Source of the DNA: a virus
Length of the DNA: 32,462 nt
Virus genome (UHGV): UHGV-0221239
Reading direction: 5' to 3' (one strand)
Shown here: positions 25,333-32,426 of the stretch, piece by piece
Layout of the letters: every line of letters begins with the position of its first letter
Position numbering within the stretch: position 1 is the first letter of the stretch
Notes under the pieces: generated by a model
Seen by the model: only the letters and a program-made list of their open reading frames with translations
What the model was told of the DNA's origin: nothing
Database searches by the model: none
Program-made: the position numbers and the translations under genes

Positions 25333-25707
25333 TTAATTAGAGTTATTAACAACGATATCCATCTCTAACCGGATATCTAATGCCATTAACATCCCTTCAA
25401 TTATGCCCTCAGCCTTCTGTAACCTTTTCCCGATATAACCATCAGAGCAGCAATGCTTACCTGCCAGTGACATGAATGTCATACCGACTACATAATAATC
25501 TACTAATAAATCGTGCAAATCGCTGTTGTTCTTTTTCAGACGGGCCATGCACCCGCAAATGATCATCGCGTCATCGTCACAACATTGCGGGCGAGATTTT
25601 ACTTTTGAAGGAATTAATCCCTTAAACCAGACCGCTGATTTTGAAGATAATGACTTCAGCGGCAAACGCTCCCTGATGGAGTCTGTCGAAGCGAAGATCA
25701 AAGACAT
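25333..25707 (-). CDS. Q-like late antiterminator (QuuD-like), 124 aa from the first ATG; its first 28 codons lie inside an inverted-repeat copy
   Basis: C-terminal ...[83 protein letters not shown] with Cys clusters; position between the early genes and the porin/lysis block as for quuD. No Shine-Dalgarno precedes the ATG in this orientation. Confidence 0.5.
25624..25697. repeat. Inverted repeat, copy 1 (74 bp perfect; 87 bp with 2 mismatches), partner at 26075-26148
   Basis: The plus-strand sequence aaaccagaccgctgattttgaagataatgacttcagcggcaaacgctccctgatggagtctgtcgaagcgaaga is the exact reverse complement of 26075-26148. Confidence 0.9.
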
Positions 25708-25933
25708 TATGCCAGTGACATTTGAATTTAAATGCGTTCCGTTTGAAGGTCTGAAAGAACGTCCGTTTAAATTACGCCTCAGCATTATCACTGGCGATCG
25801 TCCTGTACTTGTTCTGCGCATTATTCAGCTGGAGGCGGTGCAGGAAGAAATGGCTAACGAATTTCGCGATCTGCTTGTTGAGAAATTCAAAGACAGCAAA
25901 GTAGAAACCTTTATTGGTACTTTCACCGCCTGA
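25624..25933 (+). pseudogene. Displaced 3' portion of the yfdQ-like gene (repeat-encoded residues plus 74 C-terminal codons), inverted relative to its 5' part
   Basis: Plus-strand frame reads [28 protein letters not shown] then [74 protein letters not shown]; the same [24 protein letters not shown] segment ends the minus-strand gene at 26016-26663. Confidence 0.6.
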
Positions 25934-25945
25934 TTTGATTACTGC

Positions 25946-25966
25946 AAATGCCCCTGCGGGGGCATT
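25946..25966 (+). terminator. Terminator-like hairpin after the displaced yfdQ-like 3' end
   Basis: aaatgcccc-tgc-ggggcattt perfect 9-bp stem 13 nt after the stop codon; followed by a GGAG-6nt-ATGATG start context at 26052-26067. Confidence 0.4.
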
Positions 25967-26015
25967 TATGGAAACGTAATTAACTCAATAATCTCCGGAT
26001 GGTGAGGGCTTCCTT

Positions 26016-26663
26016 TTACCAGAATTCAGTGCGGTGCAGCGCAAATAACGTGGAGAACAAAATGATGTCTTTGGTCTTCGCTTCGACAGACTCCATCAGG
26101 GAGCGTTTGCCGCTGAAGTCATTATCTTCAAAATCAGCGGTCTGGTTTGCTTCAATCGTGATTTTACGGACAGCCGCAGCCGCTTTTGTTGCCTGGATAG
26201 CGTCACCATTAGCATCAAAACCCACAAGGTAGTCGGCCCAGTCTTCAATCCATTCTGCCAGTGACTTCTGGGAGTTACGCTCGCTGTTAACAGACAACAG
26301 TGCAGAGAACGGTGCTGTCTTTTTCAGTTTGAGAGTGGCGGTGTTATCTGCGTGACCTGGTTCATCAATAGTACCCAGGTTAAGCACACTGACGGCACGC
26401 ATATTATCAGCATCGATAAAGCAGCGGGTGCCTTCATCTGCAAGATCTTTAGAATAACGGGTAAAGTCATCGATGCTGGCAGTGGAAAGCGCACCACGGA
26501 AACGGAAGCGATTTAAATTAAATTTTTCCAGATCATGAATGCGGAAATTCTCAGGCAATGCTACAGCATCGGCACCAATCTTACTGATAATTTCATTAAC
26601 ACCCTGAGCAGAAATAATAGCATGGATTTGATTAATTGCGGTTGCGTCTAAGTTCTGAGACAT
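26016..26663 (-). pseudogene. yfdQ-like (DUF2303-like) phage gene, 5' part; reading frame leaves the family-like sequence after the inverted repeat and stops 15 codons later
   Basis: [51 protein letters not shown]... with GAGGA Shine-Dalgarno; after ...SVEAKTKDI it reads [15 protein letters not shown], while the plausible continuation is on the other strand at 25698-25933. Confidence 0.6.
26075..26148. repeat. Inverted repeat, copy 2 (partner of 25624-25697)
   Basis: Exact reverse complement of 25624-25697; coordinates cross-checked against the codon positions of both ORFs. Confidence 0.9.
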
Positions 26664-26728
26664 AATAAGTCCTCACTATATAAAGATATTCAGTGATGAG
26701 ATAAATAATCAGTTAATTAAGAACGATA

Positions 26729-27091
26729 TTAATGACCTGCTGCGCGGAGTTTTCCGTCAGGTTCACCGGCAAGAGTCAGTAATTGTCCCTGGTCTTCCTG
26801 CAGAATAGTCAGGCGACCACCGCGATTGACATACATCGGCGTTTCGGTGGTGTCTTCTTCAGAAATTTTCCCGCGGTTAGTCGGGCGAACATATGAGAGT
26901 TTGTGTTTGATTTTCACTCGGTTCTCATCAAATGGTTCGATTTCCAGGTTGAGTGAGACCTTACCTTTGGTTTTCGTGTTCATCACACCGGAAGCGACTT
27001 CACTGAGAACTGCGCCGATTTTGGTTTCAAATACGCCGCCGTCCAGCTCCCCGATAAATGCCTGCACATCAGTACTGCGTTCGCTAGCCAT
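26729..27091 (-). CDS. Hypothetical phage protein, 120 aa (YfdP-like)
   Basis: Start refined to MASERSTDVQAFIGELDGGVFETKIGAVLSEVASGVMNTK... with GAGGAG 8 nt upstream; the track ORF extends 106 codons further upstream into non-coding-looking sequence. Confidence 0.7.
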   Translation of the reverse strand: MASERSTDVQAFIGELDGGVFETKIGAVLSEVASGVMNTKTKGKVSLNLEIEPFDENRVKIKHKLSYVRPTNRGKISEEDTTETPMYVNRGGRLTILQEDQGQLLTLAGEPDGKLRAAGH

Positions 27092-30970: not shown

Positions 30971-31139
30971 ACTCACCATCAATATATAAATCCCCCTGCT
31001 GTGTGTCAGCAGGGCATTCTTTCCATATTAATGATGGATGGAATCTTCCTTCAGGATTAATTTCCGTTATCTCTTCTACTTTATTTTCTTCAATTCTTGC
31101 CCACATATGAACCTCACCAGTAAATATAAACTGCGCCAT
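30936..31139 (-). CDS. Possible second, truncated tail-fibre assembly gene (67 aa), convergent with and overlapping tfa
   Basis: Internal start MAQFIFTGEVHMWARIEENKVEEITEINPEGRFHPSLIWKECPAD... sits 26 nt before the stop of the glycine-rich gene, the usual stf-tfa coupling; weak similarity only. Confidence 0.35.
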   Translation of the reverse strand: MAQFIFTGEVHMWARIEENKVEEITEINPEGRFHPSLIWKECPADTQQGDLYIDGEFIAQSPAVQAR

Positions 31140-31788
31140 CTGCTCCGGCACCCGACTGACCCGTTGATGAATTAGGACATAATCCAGCACCGCCACCTCC
31201 AGGCCCAACTGCTGATACCGCTTTTCCGTTAGCTGTATCTCTGAATGAACCTGCTCCTCCGGGGCCACCACCAGAACCACCATTACCAGCTCCCGATGCG
31301 GCAGACGCAATGGAACCTGGAGAACCTGGCCCAAGCGATGTATTAATTGTTCCCCCAACACCAACTGCGCCTAACCCTCCGGAAGGCTGGCCTCCGCTAT
31401 AGCCTCCGGAAGCTGACATGTAAGTCCCGAAACTGCTCGAGCCACCATTTTTACCGTTTACAGAAATACCAGACACAGGCGCACCACCGGCACCAACCGT
31501 AATCGAAACACTGTTAATACCAGTTAAATCTACCAGTCCCTCAGCAACTCCGCCCCCACCACCTCCTCCGCCACATGTAACGGCTGAAGCGGTTATTGAA
31601 CCTATCCCTCCTGACGCACCGCCACCAATAACTTTGACGTAACATTTTCTTCCTTTGCGCAACTCTTCAGGAACAGTCCAGCTTGTTACTCCAGCCGTTG
31701 TGAAGGCAACCAGATTTCTGAACCCAAATGAGCCTTCTCCCAAACCAACGTTTATGAAAATGCAGAAATAACGAGCAAATGGCATCAT
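31114..31788 (-). CDS. Glycine-rich putative tail-fibre / receptor-binding protein, 224 aa
   Basis: ORF MMPFARYFCIFINVGLGEGSFGFRNLVAFTTAGVTSWTVPEELRKGRKCYVKVIGGGASGG... with long Gly/Ser/Ala-rich tracts; divergent from the invertase start 27 bp away, as stfE is to pinE in e14. Confidence 0.55.
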   Translation of the reverse strand: MMPFARYFCIFINVGLGEGSFGFRNLVAFTTAGVTSWTVPEELRKGRKCYVKVIGGGASGGIGSITASAVTCGGGGGGGGVAEGLVDLTGINSVSITVGAGGAPVSGISVNGKNGGSSSFGTYMSASGGYSGGQPSGGLGAVGVGGTINTSLGPGSPGSIASAASGAGNGGSGGGPGGAGSFRDTANGKAVSAVGPGGGGAGLCPNSSTGQSGAGADGAVYIYW

Positions 31789-31815
31789 TCCTGCTTTTAC
31801 TTGGGGGGATTTAAC

Positions 31816-31923
31816 ATGCTTATTAGCTATGTACGCGTATCAATAAATGACCAGAACACAGATCTACAACGTAATGCGTTGAACTGTGCAGGATGCGAGC
31901 TGATTTTTGAAGACAAAATCTAA
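31816..31923 (+). pseudogene. pin: DNA invertase (Gin/Pin/Hin serine recombinase family), first 35 codons only
   Basis: [35 protein letters not shown] matches the invertase N-terminus (Gin: [34 protein letters not shown]..., from memory), including the catalytic Ser region; a stop follows directly after the inverted repeat. Confidence 0.75.
31835..31916. repeat. Inverted repeat gamma, copy 1 (82 bp perfect; invertase codons 7-34); partner at 32245-32326
   Basis: gcgtatcaataaatgaccagaacacagatctacaacgtaatgcgttgaactgtgcaggatgcgagctgatttttgaagacaa is the exact reverse complement of 32245-32326. Confidence 0.9.
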
Positions 31924-32142
31924 CTTTGCTTAACCTTAGCGTAAACCGTTCCGTTCAGAATGCTGTATTTCTGAAAAAACGTGATGCTCTCATCGTCCAC
32001 ACCAATCTACGACTGAACATACCACTTATACTTAAGGATAAATGGGATGAGAGTGAAATACTGGAGCGAGGTAAAAAGTTGGGGGAAATTGCATTGAAAG
32101 TATGGCCAAAATACGATTAATGCAATTAATAAAATGATTATA

Positions 32143-32166
32143 GCGGCCTTACATTAGTAAGGCCGC
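32143..32166. other. Perfect 9-bp-stem palindrome (gcggcctta-cattag-taaggccgc)
   Basis: Seen directly; overlaps the stop codon of the minus-strand ORF 32154-32426; no adjacent T-run on either strand. Confidence 0.5.
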
Positions 32167-32426
32167 AACTCACTATTAAATCCTTTAATTTGCATCAAGA
32201 ACAGCACTGTCAGCCCTAGGCTCTCGGACTTTGTACCGCTTATCTTGTCTTCAAAAATCAGCTCGCATCCTGCACAGTTCAACGCATTACGTTGTAGATC
32301 TGTGTTCTGGTCATTTATTGATACGCTCGCTTGTTGCCGTTTCCTTACCAGTAGCTGTTCAGGGGTAAGATCGGTTCCAGACAGAACAATTTGGTTCATT
32401 ACCGTAGCATCTGAATTTGTCACCAT
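32154..32426 (-). pseudogene. Chimeric ORF: unrelated N-terminus + repeat-encoded invertase residues 8-34 + ISGTKSE..., then loss of invertase similarity
   Basis: [90 protein letters not shown]; invertases continue ...RPGLKRAL..., so the gene is degenerate after about residue 45. Confidence 0.5.
32245..32326. repeat. Inverted repeat gamma, copy 2
   Basis: Reverse complement of 31835-31916; boundaries cross-checked against codon positions of ORF 32154-32426. Confidence 0.9.

What the first reader, a model, noticed from the sequence alone, without database searches (positions are those of the whole stretch)
25624..32326. Recurring architecture: three loci within 7 kb each have long perfect inverted repeats bracketing a 280-380 bp segment at a gene junction
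Q/yfdQ (74 bp repeat, 377 bp segment), tail fibre (32 and 73 bp repeats, about 355 and 315 bp segments) and invertase (82 bp repeat, 328 bp segment) share the same pattern: the repeat is coding, a gene start or 5' part sits on one copy and the continuation on the other copy in inverted orientation, and all three are in the gene-disrupting orientation. Three independent events of this kind so close together are unlikely by chance, which suggests a common mechanism: programmed inversion, replication template switching producing inverted duplications, or a systematic assembly problem at short palindromic repeats. I do not recognise this as a described system.
Basis: inference. Interest (0 to 1): 0.7.

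Follow-up and report, generated by a model that had tools for sequence, protein, structure and literature searches.

The report
Three flipped 400-bp blocks, probably artefact
The long inverted repeats are real in this sequence, but they are only the overlapping ends of three ~400-bp pieces that lie backwards in an otherwise ordinary decayed E. coli prophage; this is most likely a contig-building error or, less likely, a private mutational scar, and it is not a programmed DNA switch.

Summary
Four perfect inverted-repeat pairs (74, 32, 74 and 82 nt) bracket 313-377 nt at three loci.

Window 1-25626 is a lambdoid (DLP12-type) prophage, perfectly colinear with relatives, that stops inside quuD. 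Window 25624-32462 is an e14/SfV-like prophage remnant.

Against the same remnant in independent assemblies of a near-identical strain (L007, L008), the window differs in two ways:
- Three pieces of 441, 388 and 411 nt are reverse-complemented in place.
- Those pieces overlap their neighbours by 32-87 nt, or leave a 13-nt gap.

The overlaps are the "inverted repeats". No relative has them: none of 5,426 complete E. coli genomes, none of the phage records, and no junction match in three contig collections.

The six private joints carry 0-3 nt of homology, which is chance level. None lies at a Pin crossover site. The local invertase is a 34-codon stub.

Programmed inversion is therefore rejected. 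My best explanation is mis-oriented or chimeric pieces introduced during sequencing or assembly (about 0.6). The main rival is a genuine private inversion-with-flanking-duplication (dupINVdup-type) rearrangement (about 0.3). Interest is low.

The parts
1..25626 (-). Lambdoid (DLP12-type) prophage running from inside the side-tail-fibre gene to the 3' 294 nt of quuD. It contains no rearrangement.
   Evidence: colinear with E. coli L73, with 24 mismatches and 0 gaps apart from L73's IS3 insertion; 1 mismatch in 14,530 nt against L016. Phage_antitermQ domain in the ORF 25333-25821.
25624..26064 (+). Block 1 (441 nt): the 3' third of yfdQ, the intergenic region and the yfdR start codon, reverse-complemented relative to the adjacent e14-like DNA. 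The joints are at 25626/25627 (to quuD, 3 nt AAA shared) and 26064/26065 (0 nt shared).
   Evidence: and 44 (DUF2303 C-terminal part on the + strand).
25624..25707 (.). Left arm of repeat 1. It is the inverted copy of 26065-26148: 84 nt with 1 mismatch at 25698, and a 74-nt perfect core.
26065..26663 (-). The 5' two-thirds of yfdQ (about 200 codons) in native orientation. Its first 84 nt (26065-26148) form the right arm of repeat 1.
26065..29969 (+). Unrearranged e14/SfV-like early region (yfdQ', yfdP, ECs1072-family gene, cI/ymfK, cro/ymfT, ymfL'), joined to ymfQ' and the tail-fibre 5' part.
   Evidence: an uninterrupted 3,912-nt alignment to L007 and L008. Searches give the gene names.
29417..29422 (.). 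Inherited deletion joint (ymfL codon 2 joined to the ymfQ 3' end; about 25.6 kb of prophage lost). It is not private to this window.
   Evidence: One search shows the break relative to strain 1190. One search shows that the same joint is present in L007 (ENA metagenome scaffold) and L008 (Logan contig).
29789..29816 (.). Left Pin crossover site (pix-like) of the natural invertible tail-fibre segment.
   Evidence: 0 mismatches to the crossover-site core; the same pair is present in parents L001 and L007.
29509..29969 (+). Tail-fibre gene 5' part (154 native codons, Collar domain), truncated at the left joint of block 2.
29969..30356 (-). Block 2 (388 nt): the tail-fibre C-terminal 95 codons plus the first 67 nt of tfa, reverse-complemented in place. 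It overlaps the left flank by 32-36 nt and the right flank by 74 nt. Each joint shares 1 nt.
   Evidence: 100% identical to L007 and L008 in reverse complement; no complete genome has this arrangement.
30362..30970 (+). Tail-fibre assembly gene tfa, intact. Its first 67 nt lie in the right arm of the 74-nt repeat.
31730..31757 (.). Right Pin crossover site of the natural invertible segment.
31816..31920 (+). Pin-type serine invertase stub: 34 native codons, then a stop. In the parent arrangement it is already only a 63-codon ORF, cut off by the GmrSD gene.
   Evidence: annotated as a recombinase pseudogene; a 63-aa Resolvase fragment in L007 and L008.
31916..32326 (-). Block 3 (411 nt): the rest of the Pin stub plus the C-terminal 68 codons of the GmrSD-type restriction gene, reverse-complemented in place. 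It overlaps the left flank by 82-85 nt, and 13 nt are missing on the right. The joints share 1 and 0 nt.
   Evidence: (100% identical to L007 and L008), and 44 (GmrSD_C on the + strand).
32327..32462 (-). Interior of the GmrSD (DUF262) gene in native orientation. It runs off the end of the window.

Best explanation
The inverted repeats are not recombination sites. They are the overlapping ends of three pieces of about 400 bp (441, 388 and 411 nt) that lie reverse-complemented inside an otherwise canonical remnant of an e14/SfV-like prophage. That remnant is in turn abutted, with no meaningful homology, to the middle of the quuD gene of an unrelated lambdoid prophage.

What is shown:
- Each piece tiles the parent sequence.
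- Each piece overlaps its forward-oriented neighbours by 32-87 nt, or misses them by 13 nt.
- Because the piece is backwards, each unmerged overlap reads as an inverted repeat bracketing the rest of the piece.

What is inferred: the pieces were mis-oriented or chimerically joined while the sequence was produced. This could have happened in silico (contig or graph-path construction, gap filling) or in vitro (inverted chimeric molecules). The real chromosome of this strain would then carry the canonical arrangement, with intact yfdQ, tail-fibre and GmrSD genes and the two prophages at separate loci.

No programmed inversion is involved.
For: 1. Structure. blastn against reference loci shows the window is colinear except for three in-place reverse-complemented blocks with duplicated ends. 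The same holds against L007 and L008, where blocks 2 and 3 are 100% identical in reverse complement.

2. The canonical arrangement exists in a near-identical strain.
- L007 (ENA scaffold) and L008 (Logan contig) share even the window's ymfL|ymfQ deletion joint and differ by at most 2-3 bases over 3.9 kb. They have intact yfdQ (274 aa), tail fibre (249 aa), the 63-aa Pin stub and GmrSD (629 aa).
- The same metagenome sample carries the lambdoid prophage on a different 87-kb scaffold, with 1 mismatch in 14,530 nt to the window.

3. An intact 274-aa YfdQ carrying the rare C-terminal variant encoded by block 1 is on record. None of the five truncated or chimeric ORF products is on record.

4. The arrangement is private.
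- 0 of 5,426 complete E. coli genomes hold any of the three arrangements.
- None of the phage records do.
- Junction 40-mers are absent from IMG/VR contigs, GTDB representative genomes and JGI metagenomes.
- quuD is intact in every context retrieved.

5. Joints and clustering.
- Homology across all seven joints (the six private ones plus the inherited deletion joint) is 3, 0, 3, 1, 1, 1 and 0 nt, sum 9. This is not above random joins (P = 0.08).
- The five inverted joints have 0-1 nt.
- The three inverted pieces are the three shortest and are uniform in length, whereas the forward stretches are 557-3,361 nt. That pattern is expected if correctly oriented pieces merged and wrongly oriented ones could not (inference).
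- Six private joints sit in 6.8 kb, against none in 25.6 kb.
Against: - No reads, coverage or assembly graph are available, so the artefact is inferred and not observed.
- I cannot name a specific pipeline that yields exactly this pattern.
- Base quality is high: 0 indels, and at most one unexplained substitution (25698) in 1,240 inverted bases. This argues against raw single long reads.
- The overlaps vary (32-87 nt), which argues against a fixed-k graph export error.
- Paired inverted joints do arise in living E. coli (PMC3161906).
- Inverted repeats with spacers above 300 nt are tolerated in E. coli (established knowledge).
Confidence: 0.6

Rival explanations
1. A genuine, private, non-programmed complex rearrangement in the cell. 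Three local inversions with staggered ends (one dupINVdup, one dupINVdel, and one attached to an inter-prophage joint) were made by serial template switching at a stalled or collapsed replication fork (FoSTeS/MMBIR-like), or by illegitimate end joining, within a dispensable prophage remnant. In this reading (inferred), the nascent strand jumps 314-424 nt ahead onto the opposite strand, copies back about 400 nt past its departure point, and returns near its first landing point. The inverted repeats are by-products.
For: - The geometry matches CNV-flanked inversion classes (PMC5338099).
- Pairs of inverted template switches have been documented in starving E. coli (PMC3161906).
- The jump distances are narrow (314-424 nt), and only the reverse segments are short. 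This is compatible with a limited single-stranded template.
- Clustering fits one multi-switch event.
- One arm carries a private C>T change (25698), compatible with error-prone synthesis.
- The sequence is clean at base level.
Against: - Joint microhomology is at chance level, and it is 0-1 nt at all five inverted joints. The E. coli template-switch inversion joints reported had 3-30 bp.
- E. coli lacks classical end joining (established knowledge).
- Independent assemblies of a near-identical strain have the canonical arrangement.
- The event would also require a large chromosomal rearrangement joining two prophages that lie on separate scaffolds elsewhere.
- It has not been seen in any other genome.
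Confidence: 0.3
2. In-vitro inverted chimeras from whole-genome (multiple displacement) amplification or a similar strand-displacement step, carried into the contig. This is a specific sub-case of the artefact explanation.
For: - In MDA, 85% of chimeras are inverted, and most join segments less than 10 kb apart in the same molecule (PMC1855051).
- Assemblies of MDA DNA carry many inverted misassemblies (bioRxiv 10.64898/2026.06.11.730069).
- Five of the six private joints here are inverted and local.
Against: - In MDA, 93.5% of inverted joints less than 10 kb apart show at least 2 nt of complementarity. Here all five have 0-1 nt.
- MDA gives about one joint per 10-22 kb. Here there are six in 6.8 kb and none in 25.6 kb.
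Confidence: 0.07
3. A programmed or recombinase-driven set of invertible cassettes (invertons, or extra Pin substrates) that toggle yfdQ, the tail fibre and the invertase/GmrSD junction.
For: - In-silico recombination between the arms restores full-length YfdQ (274 aa), the tail fibre (249 aa) and the 63-codon Pin stub.
- A genuine Pin-invertible segment surrounds locus 2, and its orientation differs among genomes.
Against: - The repeats do not exist in any relative in either orientation.
- No crossover-site motif lies at the joints.
- The arms share no significant motif.
- The invertase is a 34-codon stub.
- Restoration on flipping is an automatic consequence of inversion plus duplication.
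Confidence: 0.02
4. The locus-1 repeat arises from two paralogous yfdQ copies, the lambdoid prophage's own early-left module and the e14-like copy, brought head-to-head. On this reading it would be unrelated to loci 2 and 3.
For: - DLP12-type prophages such as the one in E. coli KSC9 naturally carry quuD, a DUF968 fragment, a yfdQ fragment on the + strand, yfdR and intD. The yfdQ 3' part lies in the same orientation as block 1.
- Block 1 differs at 4 positions from the 1190-type allele.
Against: - Block 1 is closer to the e14-like allele (4 mismatches) than to the KSC9 allele (10 mismatches plus 1 gap).
- Two of its variants are common polymorphisms.
- An intact YfdQ combining the window's N-terminal part with block 1's rare C-terminal variant exists, so block 1 belongs to the same gene copy.
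- Block 1 has the same size and overlap pattern as blocks 2 and 3.
Confidence: 0.03

Closest known systems
Local misassembly or inverted chimeric node in a contig (as described for amplified-DNA assemblies, bioRxiv 10.64898/2026.06.11.730069; chimera mechanism in PMC1855051)
   Same: - A short piece overlaps one neighbour in forward orientation and another in reverse orientation, interrupting an otherwise linear path.
- It is private to one assembly.
- It is absent from independent assemblies of the same or a near-identical strain.
   Different: - The joints lack the complementarity of 2 nt or more that is typical of MDA chimeras.
- Three such pieces are clustered in 6.8 kb.
- No read or graph data are available to confirm the artefact.
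CNV-flanked inversions (dupINVdup, dupINVdel) and paired inverted template switches (PMC5338099; E. coli Lac amplification system, PMC3161906; MMBIR model, PMC2621351)
   Same: - An inverted segment flanked by inverted duplications of its borders (block 2), or by a duplication on one side and a small deletion on the other (block 3).
- Non-recurrent breakpoints.
- Several joints clustered in one event-sized region.
   Different: - The scale is about 400 bp, with 32-87 nt duplications, against kilobases to megabases in the published cases.
- Microhomology is at chance level, against 3-30 bp in E. coli.
- There is no selection for amplification.
- An in-vivo origin has not been demonstrated.
Din-family serine invertase systems (Pin of e14, Gin of Mu, Cin of P1) that flip tail-fibre segments
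   Same: Locus 2 lies inside a genuine Pin-type invertible segment with 24-26-nt crossover sites at 29789-29816 and 31730-31757. This segment has alternative tail-fibre C-termini, and its orientation varies among genomes.
   Different: - The long repeats are not the crossover sites, do not resemble them, and are absent from relatives.
- The invertase gene is a stub.
- Serine invertases create no duplications.
Invertons and intragenic invertons (phase-variable segments flanked by inverted repeats)
   Same: Coding-region segments of 300-380 bp bracketed by inverted repeats. Flipping would switch genes between intact and disrupted forms.
   Different: - Inverton repeats are short and are conserved in relatives in both orientations.
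- Here the repeats are 32-84 nt and unique to this window, with no cognate recombinase.

Membership tests
Din-family (Pin/Gin/Cin/Hin) invertible segment | Inverted crossover sites of about 26 bp with the AAACC..GGTTT core at the borders of the inverted segment | tested here: not met
   the core motif occurs only at 29789-29808 and 31738-31757, the natural P segment. It occurs at none of the six block joints.
Din-family (Pin/Gin/Cin/Hin) invertible segment | A functional serine invertase gene adjacent to the segment | tested here: not met
   34 native codons, then a stop. The parent has only a 63-codon ORF, annotated as a pseudogene.
Din-family (Pin/Gin/Cin/Hin) invertible segment | Conservative exchange: no gain or loss of sequence on inversion | tested here: not met
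   duplications of 32-36, 74, 82-85 and 84 nt, and a 13-nt loss. The P segment is 1,913 nt here against 1,809 nt in the parents.
Inverton / phase-variable segment flanked by inverted repeats | The inverted repeats are present in related genomes, and both orientations of the enclosed segment are observed | tested here: not met
   0 of 5,426 genomes; no phage records; the parents L007, L008, L001 and L003 hold a single copy of every arm.
Inverton / phase-variable segment flanked by inverted repeats | Mixed orientations in reads from one culture | not testable with these tools
   No reads are available.
Replicative template-switch rearrangement (FoSTeS/MMBIR; dupINVdup class) | An inverted segment flanked by inverted duplication or deletion of its borders, arisen de novo relative to the parent sequence | tested here: met
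Replicative template-switch rearrangement (FoSTeS/MMBIR; dupINVdup class) | Microhomology at the joints above chance | tested here: not met
   3, 0, 3, 1, 1, 1, 0 nt; P = 0.08 against random joins. The inverted joints have 0-1 nt. The published E. coli inversion joints had 3-30 bp.
Replicative template-switch rearrangement (FoSTeS/MMBIR; dupINVdup class) | The joints are physically present in the organism's DNA | not testable with these tools
   This needs reads or PCR.
Assembly or chimera artefact (mis-oriented piece) | The arrangement is absent from independent assemblies of the same or a near-identical strain, which show the canonical order | tested here: met
Assembly or chimera artefact (mis-oriented piece) | The pieces tile the parent with unmerged overlaps or small gaps, and the joints lack homology | tested here: met
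Assembly or chimera artefact (mis-oriented piece) | No reads, or only minority reads, support the joints; a coverage anomaly is present | not testable with these tools
   No reads or assembly graph are available.
MDA inverted chimera | At least 2 nt of complementarity at more than 90% of inverted joints less than 10 kb apart | tested here: not met
   (0-1 nt at all five joints) against (93.5%).

The most novel reading that the evidence does not exclude
The three blocks are genuine in-cell events made in one episode by a homology-independent process with a characteristic reach of about 315-425 nt. One candidate is strand switching across an uncoupled replication fork in a prophage remnant. The process would have left de novo 32-84-nt inverted repeats that RecA could now use to flip yfdQ, the tail-fibre gene and the Pin/GmrSD junction between disrupted and restored forms. 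This would be a route by which new invertible gene switches are born.
Probability: 0.12. Interest if true: 0.6.

Novelty: not a real feature. Interest (0 to 1): 0.15.

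Why it matters
If the artefact reading is right, the value is practical. Long perfect inverted repeats bracketing about 300-400 bp at disrupted genes can be the signature of mis-oriented pieces with unmerged overlaps. They should not be reported as invertons, and the three disrupted genes (yfdQ, tail fibre, GmrSD) should not be scored as pseudogenes in this strain.

If the rearrangement is real, it would be a rare bacterial example of clustered, homology-free inversion-with-duplication events. 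It would also be a plausible origin of new recA-dependent invertible segments, worth a read-level check. Either way it is a mutational scar and not a new system.

Tried and rejected
1. Pin-mediated inversion at secondary sites. Rejected: there is no crossover motif at the joints, duplications are present, and the invertase is a stub.

2. A shared recombination motif in the arms. The only overlap is a 14-of-15-nt match, GCTGATTTT(T)GAAGA, between arms 1 and 4. It is within chance for six pairwise comparisons and is explained by similar codons (FED).

3. Block 1 as a paralogous yfdQ copy from the lambdoid prophage (KSC9-type layout). Largely rejected, because an intact YfdQ combining both parts with the rare variant exists.

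4. Elevated mutation in block 1 as a sign of error-prone synthesis. Of the 4 differences from strain 1190, two are common polymorphisms and one exists in an intact natural gene. Only 25698 C>T remains unexplained.

5. One seven-joint chain that includes the 25.6-kb deletion. Rejected: that joint is inherited.

6. Searches for the joints elsewhere, all empty:
- 40-mers across 25626/7, about 29420 and about 29971 in viral, GTDB-representative and JGI metagenome contigs.
- An allele 43-mer.
- Exact look-ups of the chimeric ORF products.

7. Fetching the ENA contig that encodes P0002, and searching for its allele pattern.

8. MDA chimeras. Disfavoured by joint homology and joint density.

9. Export of a fixed-k graph path without reverse-complementing or trimming. 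I considered this by reasoning; it predicts equal overlaps, and the observed overlaps vary from 32 to 87 nt.

Full report
**Observation.** The repeats are there, at the stated coordinates. The repeat finder reports four inverted pairs in 25.6-32.3 kb and no comparable pair in the other 25 kb of the window. The perfect cores are 74 nt (25624-25697 / 26075-26148, bracketing 377 nt), 32 nt (29938-29969 / 30325-30356, bracketing 355 nt), 74 nt (29969-30042 / 30356-30429, bracketing 313 nt) and 82 nt (31835-31916 / 32245-32326, bracketing 328 nt). Chance cannot produce these.

The gene-level description is also right:
- yfdQ (DUF2303) is cut after about 200 codons, and its 3' part lies on the opposite strand.
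- The tail-fibre gene (Collar domain) is cut at codon 154, and its C-terminus lies inverted.
- The Pin stub and the C-terminal 68 codons of a GmrSD-type restriction gene are inverted.
- The tail-fibre assembly gene tfa is intact.

**What the window is.** Positions 1-25626 are a lambdoid, DLP12-type prophage running from the tail fibre through head, terminase, lysis and porin genes to quuD. This stretch is perfectly colinear with E. coli L73, with 24 mismatches and no gaps apart from L73's own IS3 insertion. It stops in the middle of quuD. Positions 25624-32462 belong to a different element, an e14/SfIV/SfV-like prophage that is normally integrated at icd.

**Anatomy of the three loci.** Piecewise blastn against the e14-like prophage of strain 1190 shows the window is colinear with it except as follows:
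- Block 1: window 25624-26064 is the reverse complement of reference 2644-3084, and the forward sequence then resumes at reference 2998-3001.
- Block 2: window 29969-30356 is the reverse complement of reference 3019-3406. The forward flank before it ends at 3050-3054, and the forward flank after it starts at 3333.
- Block 3: window 31916-32326 is the reverse complement of reference 4812-5222. The forward flank before it ends at 4893-4896, and the forward flank after it starts at 5236.

So three pieces of 441, 388 and 411 nt lie backwards in place. Their ends overlap the forward flanks by 84, 32-36, 74 and 82-85 nt, and once leave a 13-nt gap. Because the piece is backwards, each overlap reads as an inverted repeat bracketing the remainder of the piece. 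This accounts for every repeat in the finding. The references carry each arm once. Their only inverted repeat in this region is the 24-nt Pin crossover pair.

**The parent arrangement exists in a near-identical strain.**
- Looking up the window's cI protein returned an ENA metagenome scaffold (L007) and a Logan contig (L008). Both carry the same remnant, including the window's ymfL|ymfQ deletion joint: window 26062-29973 aligns without interruption over 3,912 nt at 99.9% identity.
- In those contigs yfdQ (274 aa), yfdR, xis, int, the tail fibre (249 aa), tfa, a 63-aa resolvase fragment and GmrSD (629 aa) are all intact. Blocks 2 and 3 are 100% identical to them in reverse complement.
- The 25.6-kb deletion is therefore inherited. 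Only six joints are private to the window: two per block, one of which joins block 1 to quuD.
- The same metagenome sample carries the lambdoid prophage on a separate 87-kb scaffold that differs from the window by 1 base in 14,530.
- An intact 274-aa YfdQ that combines the window's N-terminal part with the rare C-terminal variant encoded by block 1 is on record in one ENA contig. None of the truncated or chimeric products is on record.
- quuD is intact in every retrieved context of the neighbouring porin and GIY-YIG genes.

**How widespread is it?** It was found nowhere else.
- None of 5,426 complete E. coli genomes has any of the three arrangements, although 1,374-4,198 of them carry the sequences concerned.
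- No phage record has the block 1 or block 2 arrangement.
- 40-mers spanning the joints are absent from IMG/VR contigs, GTDB representative genomes and JGI metagenome contigs.

**Is it programmed inversion?** No.
- The repeats are products of the rearrangement and not pre-existing sites.
- The Pin/Gin-type crossover core occurs only at 29789-29808 and 31738-31757. These are the borders of the natural invertible tail-fibre segment, whose orientation does differ among genomes.
- The invertase here is 34 native codons followed by a stop. Even in the parent it is only a 63-codon fragment, cut off by the GmrSD gene.
- Serine invertases do not create duplications.
- The arms share no motif beyond chance.
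- In-silico recombination between the arms restores full-length YfdQ, the tail fibre and the Pin stub. That is automatic for any inversion with duplicated borders.

**What made the joints?** Perfect-match overlap across all seven joints, in order, is 3, 0, 3, 1, 1, 1 and 0 nt. The second 3 belongs to the inherited deletion joint. The sum of 9 compares with 4.7 +/- 2.5 for random joins (P = 0.08). The five inverted joints have 0-1 nt. This bears on three candidate mechanisms:
- MDA-type chimeras. These show at least 2 nt of complementarity at 93.5% of local inverted joints and occur about once per 10-22 kb (PMC1855051). Both figures argue against them here.
- In-vivo template switching. The paired inverted template switches documented in starving E. 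coli had 3-30 bp of microhomology (PMC3161906). The geometry here (dupINVdup and dupINVdel in the terms of PMC5338099) fits a replicative template-switch reading, but the joints do not carry its usual signature. E. coli also lacks classical end joining (established knowledge).
- Abutted, mis-oriented pieces. Homology-free joints, pieces that tile the parent with small overlaps or a small gap, and the fact that only the three shortest, uniform pieces are reversed while forward stretches are long (557-3,361 nt) all fit this. It is what is expected if correctly oriented pieces were merged and wrongly oriented ones were merely abutted (inference).

Taking all this together with the canonical arrangement in independent assemblies of a near-identical strain, and the chimeric junction between two prophages that lie on separate scaffolds there, I judge an artefact of sequence production to be the most likely cause (0.6). 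A genuine private complex rearrangement comes second (0.3).

I could not test read support, and I cannot name the exact pipeline error. The high base accuracy (no indels, at most one unexplained substitution at 25698) and the variable overlaps are points against simple single-read or fixed-k explanations.

**Leads followed and dropped.**
- Block 1 differs from the 1190-type allele at four positions, and DLP12-type prophages such as KSC9's naturally carry a yfdQ fragment in block 1's orientation next to quuD. This suggested a paralogous origin. However, two of the differences are common polymorphisms, one occurs in an intact natural YfdQ with the window's N-terminus, and block 1 is closer to the e14-like allele than to KSC9's. 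Only 25698 C>T, inside the left arm, is unexplained.

**Verdict.**
- A common cause is supported.
- Programmed or invertase-driven inversion is rejected.
- The repeats are by-products of three reverse-complemented pieces of about 400 bp.
- The cause is most probably an artefact. Otherwise it is a private mutational scar of a known geometric class.
- Interest is low. The decisive test is read mapping or PCR across the six joints.

Noticed in passing
window 29789-29816 and 31730-31757 (segment 29817-31729): A genuine Pin-type invertible tail-fibre segment with 24-26-nt crossover sites. It holds a Collar-domain fibre C-terminus plus tfa on one side, and a glycine-rich alternative C-terminus (31114-31788, minus strand) on the other. 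Its orientation differs among E. coli genomes even though the adjacent invertase is only a stub, so inversion is presumably driven in trans by another prophage's invertase.
   Followed up: partly
window 31816-32462; L007 256-2370: In this prophage lineage the pin gene is truncated to a 63-codon ORF. It is followed by a convergent 629-aa GmrSD-type (DUF262 plus GmrSD_C) type IV restriction gene, in the position where e14 of K-12 carries pinE and mcrA. This looks like a swap of a defence gene at the prophage end.
   Followed up: partly
window 29417-29422: A deletion of about 25.6 kb joins ymfL codon 2 to the 3' end of ymfQ (3 nt shared). It removes the replication, lysis, head and most tail genes of the e14-like prophage. 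The same joint is present in an ENA metagenome scaffold and a Logan contig (L007, L008), so it is a natural, inherited deletion.
   Followed up: yes
L006 (E. coli KSC9) 5774-9692: DLP12-type prophages at argU in several pig and cat isolates have an internal deletion that places quuD next to a DUF968 fragment and a 5'-truncated yfdQ-yfdR-...-intD module. This shows that yfdQ/yfdR modules are shared between argU and icd prophages.
   Followed up: partly
window 25634-25647 and 31896-31910: The arms of repeats 1 and 4 share GCTGATTTT(T)GAAGA (14 of 15 nt), about 10 nt from a joint in each case. It encodes D-F-E-D in YfdQ and L-I-F-E-D in Pin. I judge it coincidental.
   Followed up: yes
window 25698: A single C>T difference between the two arms of repeat 1. 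It changes Thr to Ile in the YfdQ reading frame. It was not found in any allele examined, and the Ile version is not in the 15-billion-protein collection. It could be a sequencing error or a new mutation.
   Followed up: partly
window 27140-27228: An imperfect 25-nt inverted repeat with a 39-nt spacer, between the yfdP-side genes and the ECs1072-family gene. It is conserved in the parent loci (L003 4076-4164, L007 6854-6942). It may be an operator or a terminator.
   Followed up: no
window 19867-19923: An imperfect 25-nt inverted repeat with a 7-nt loop, just beyond nohD (the small terminase subunit gene), in the cos/terminator area of the lambdoid prophage.
   Followed up: no
window 26729-27409 (minus strand): A 226-aa ORF spans what is annotated in strain 1190 as yfdP (120 aa) plus a "frameshifted" upstream hypothetical gene. 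The exact 226-aa product is not on record in the protein collection.
   Followed up: no
window 21611-22099 and 24046-25143: The lambdoid prophage carries accessory cargo genes: a GIY-YIG/T5orf172 nuclease gene and an OmpC/NmpC-like porin gene between the lysis genes and quuD. L73 has an IS3 insertion in the Rz region that this window lacks.
   Followed up: no
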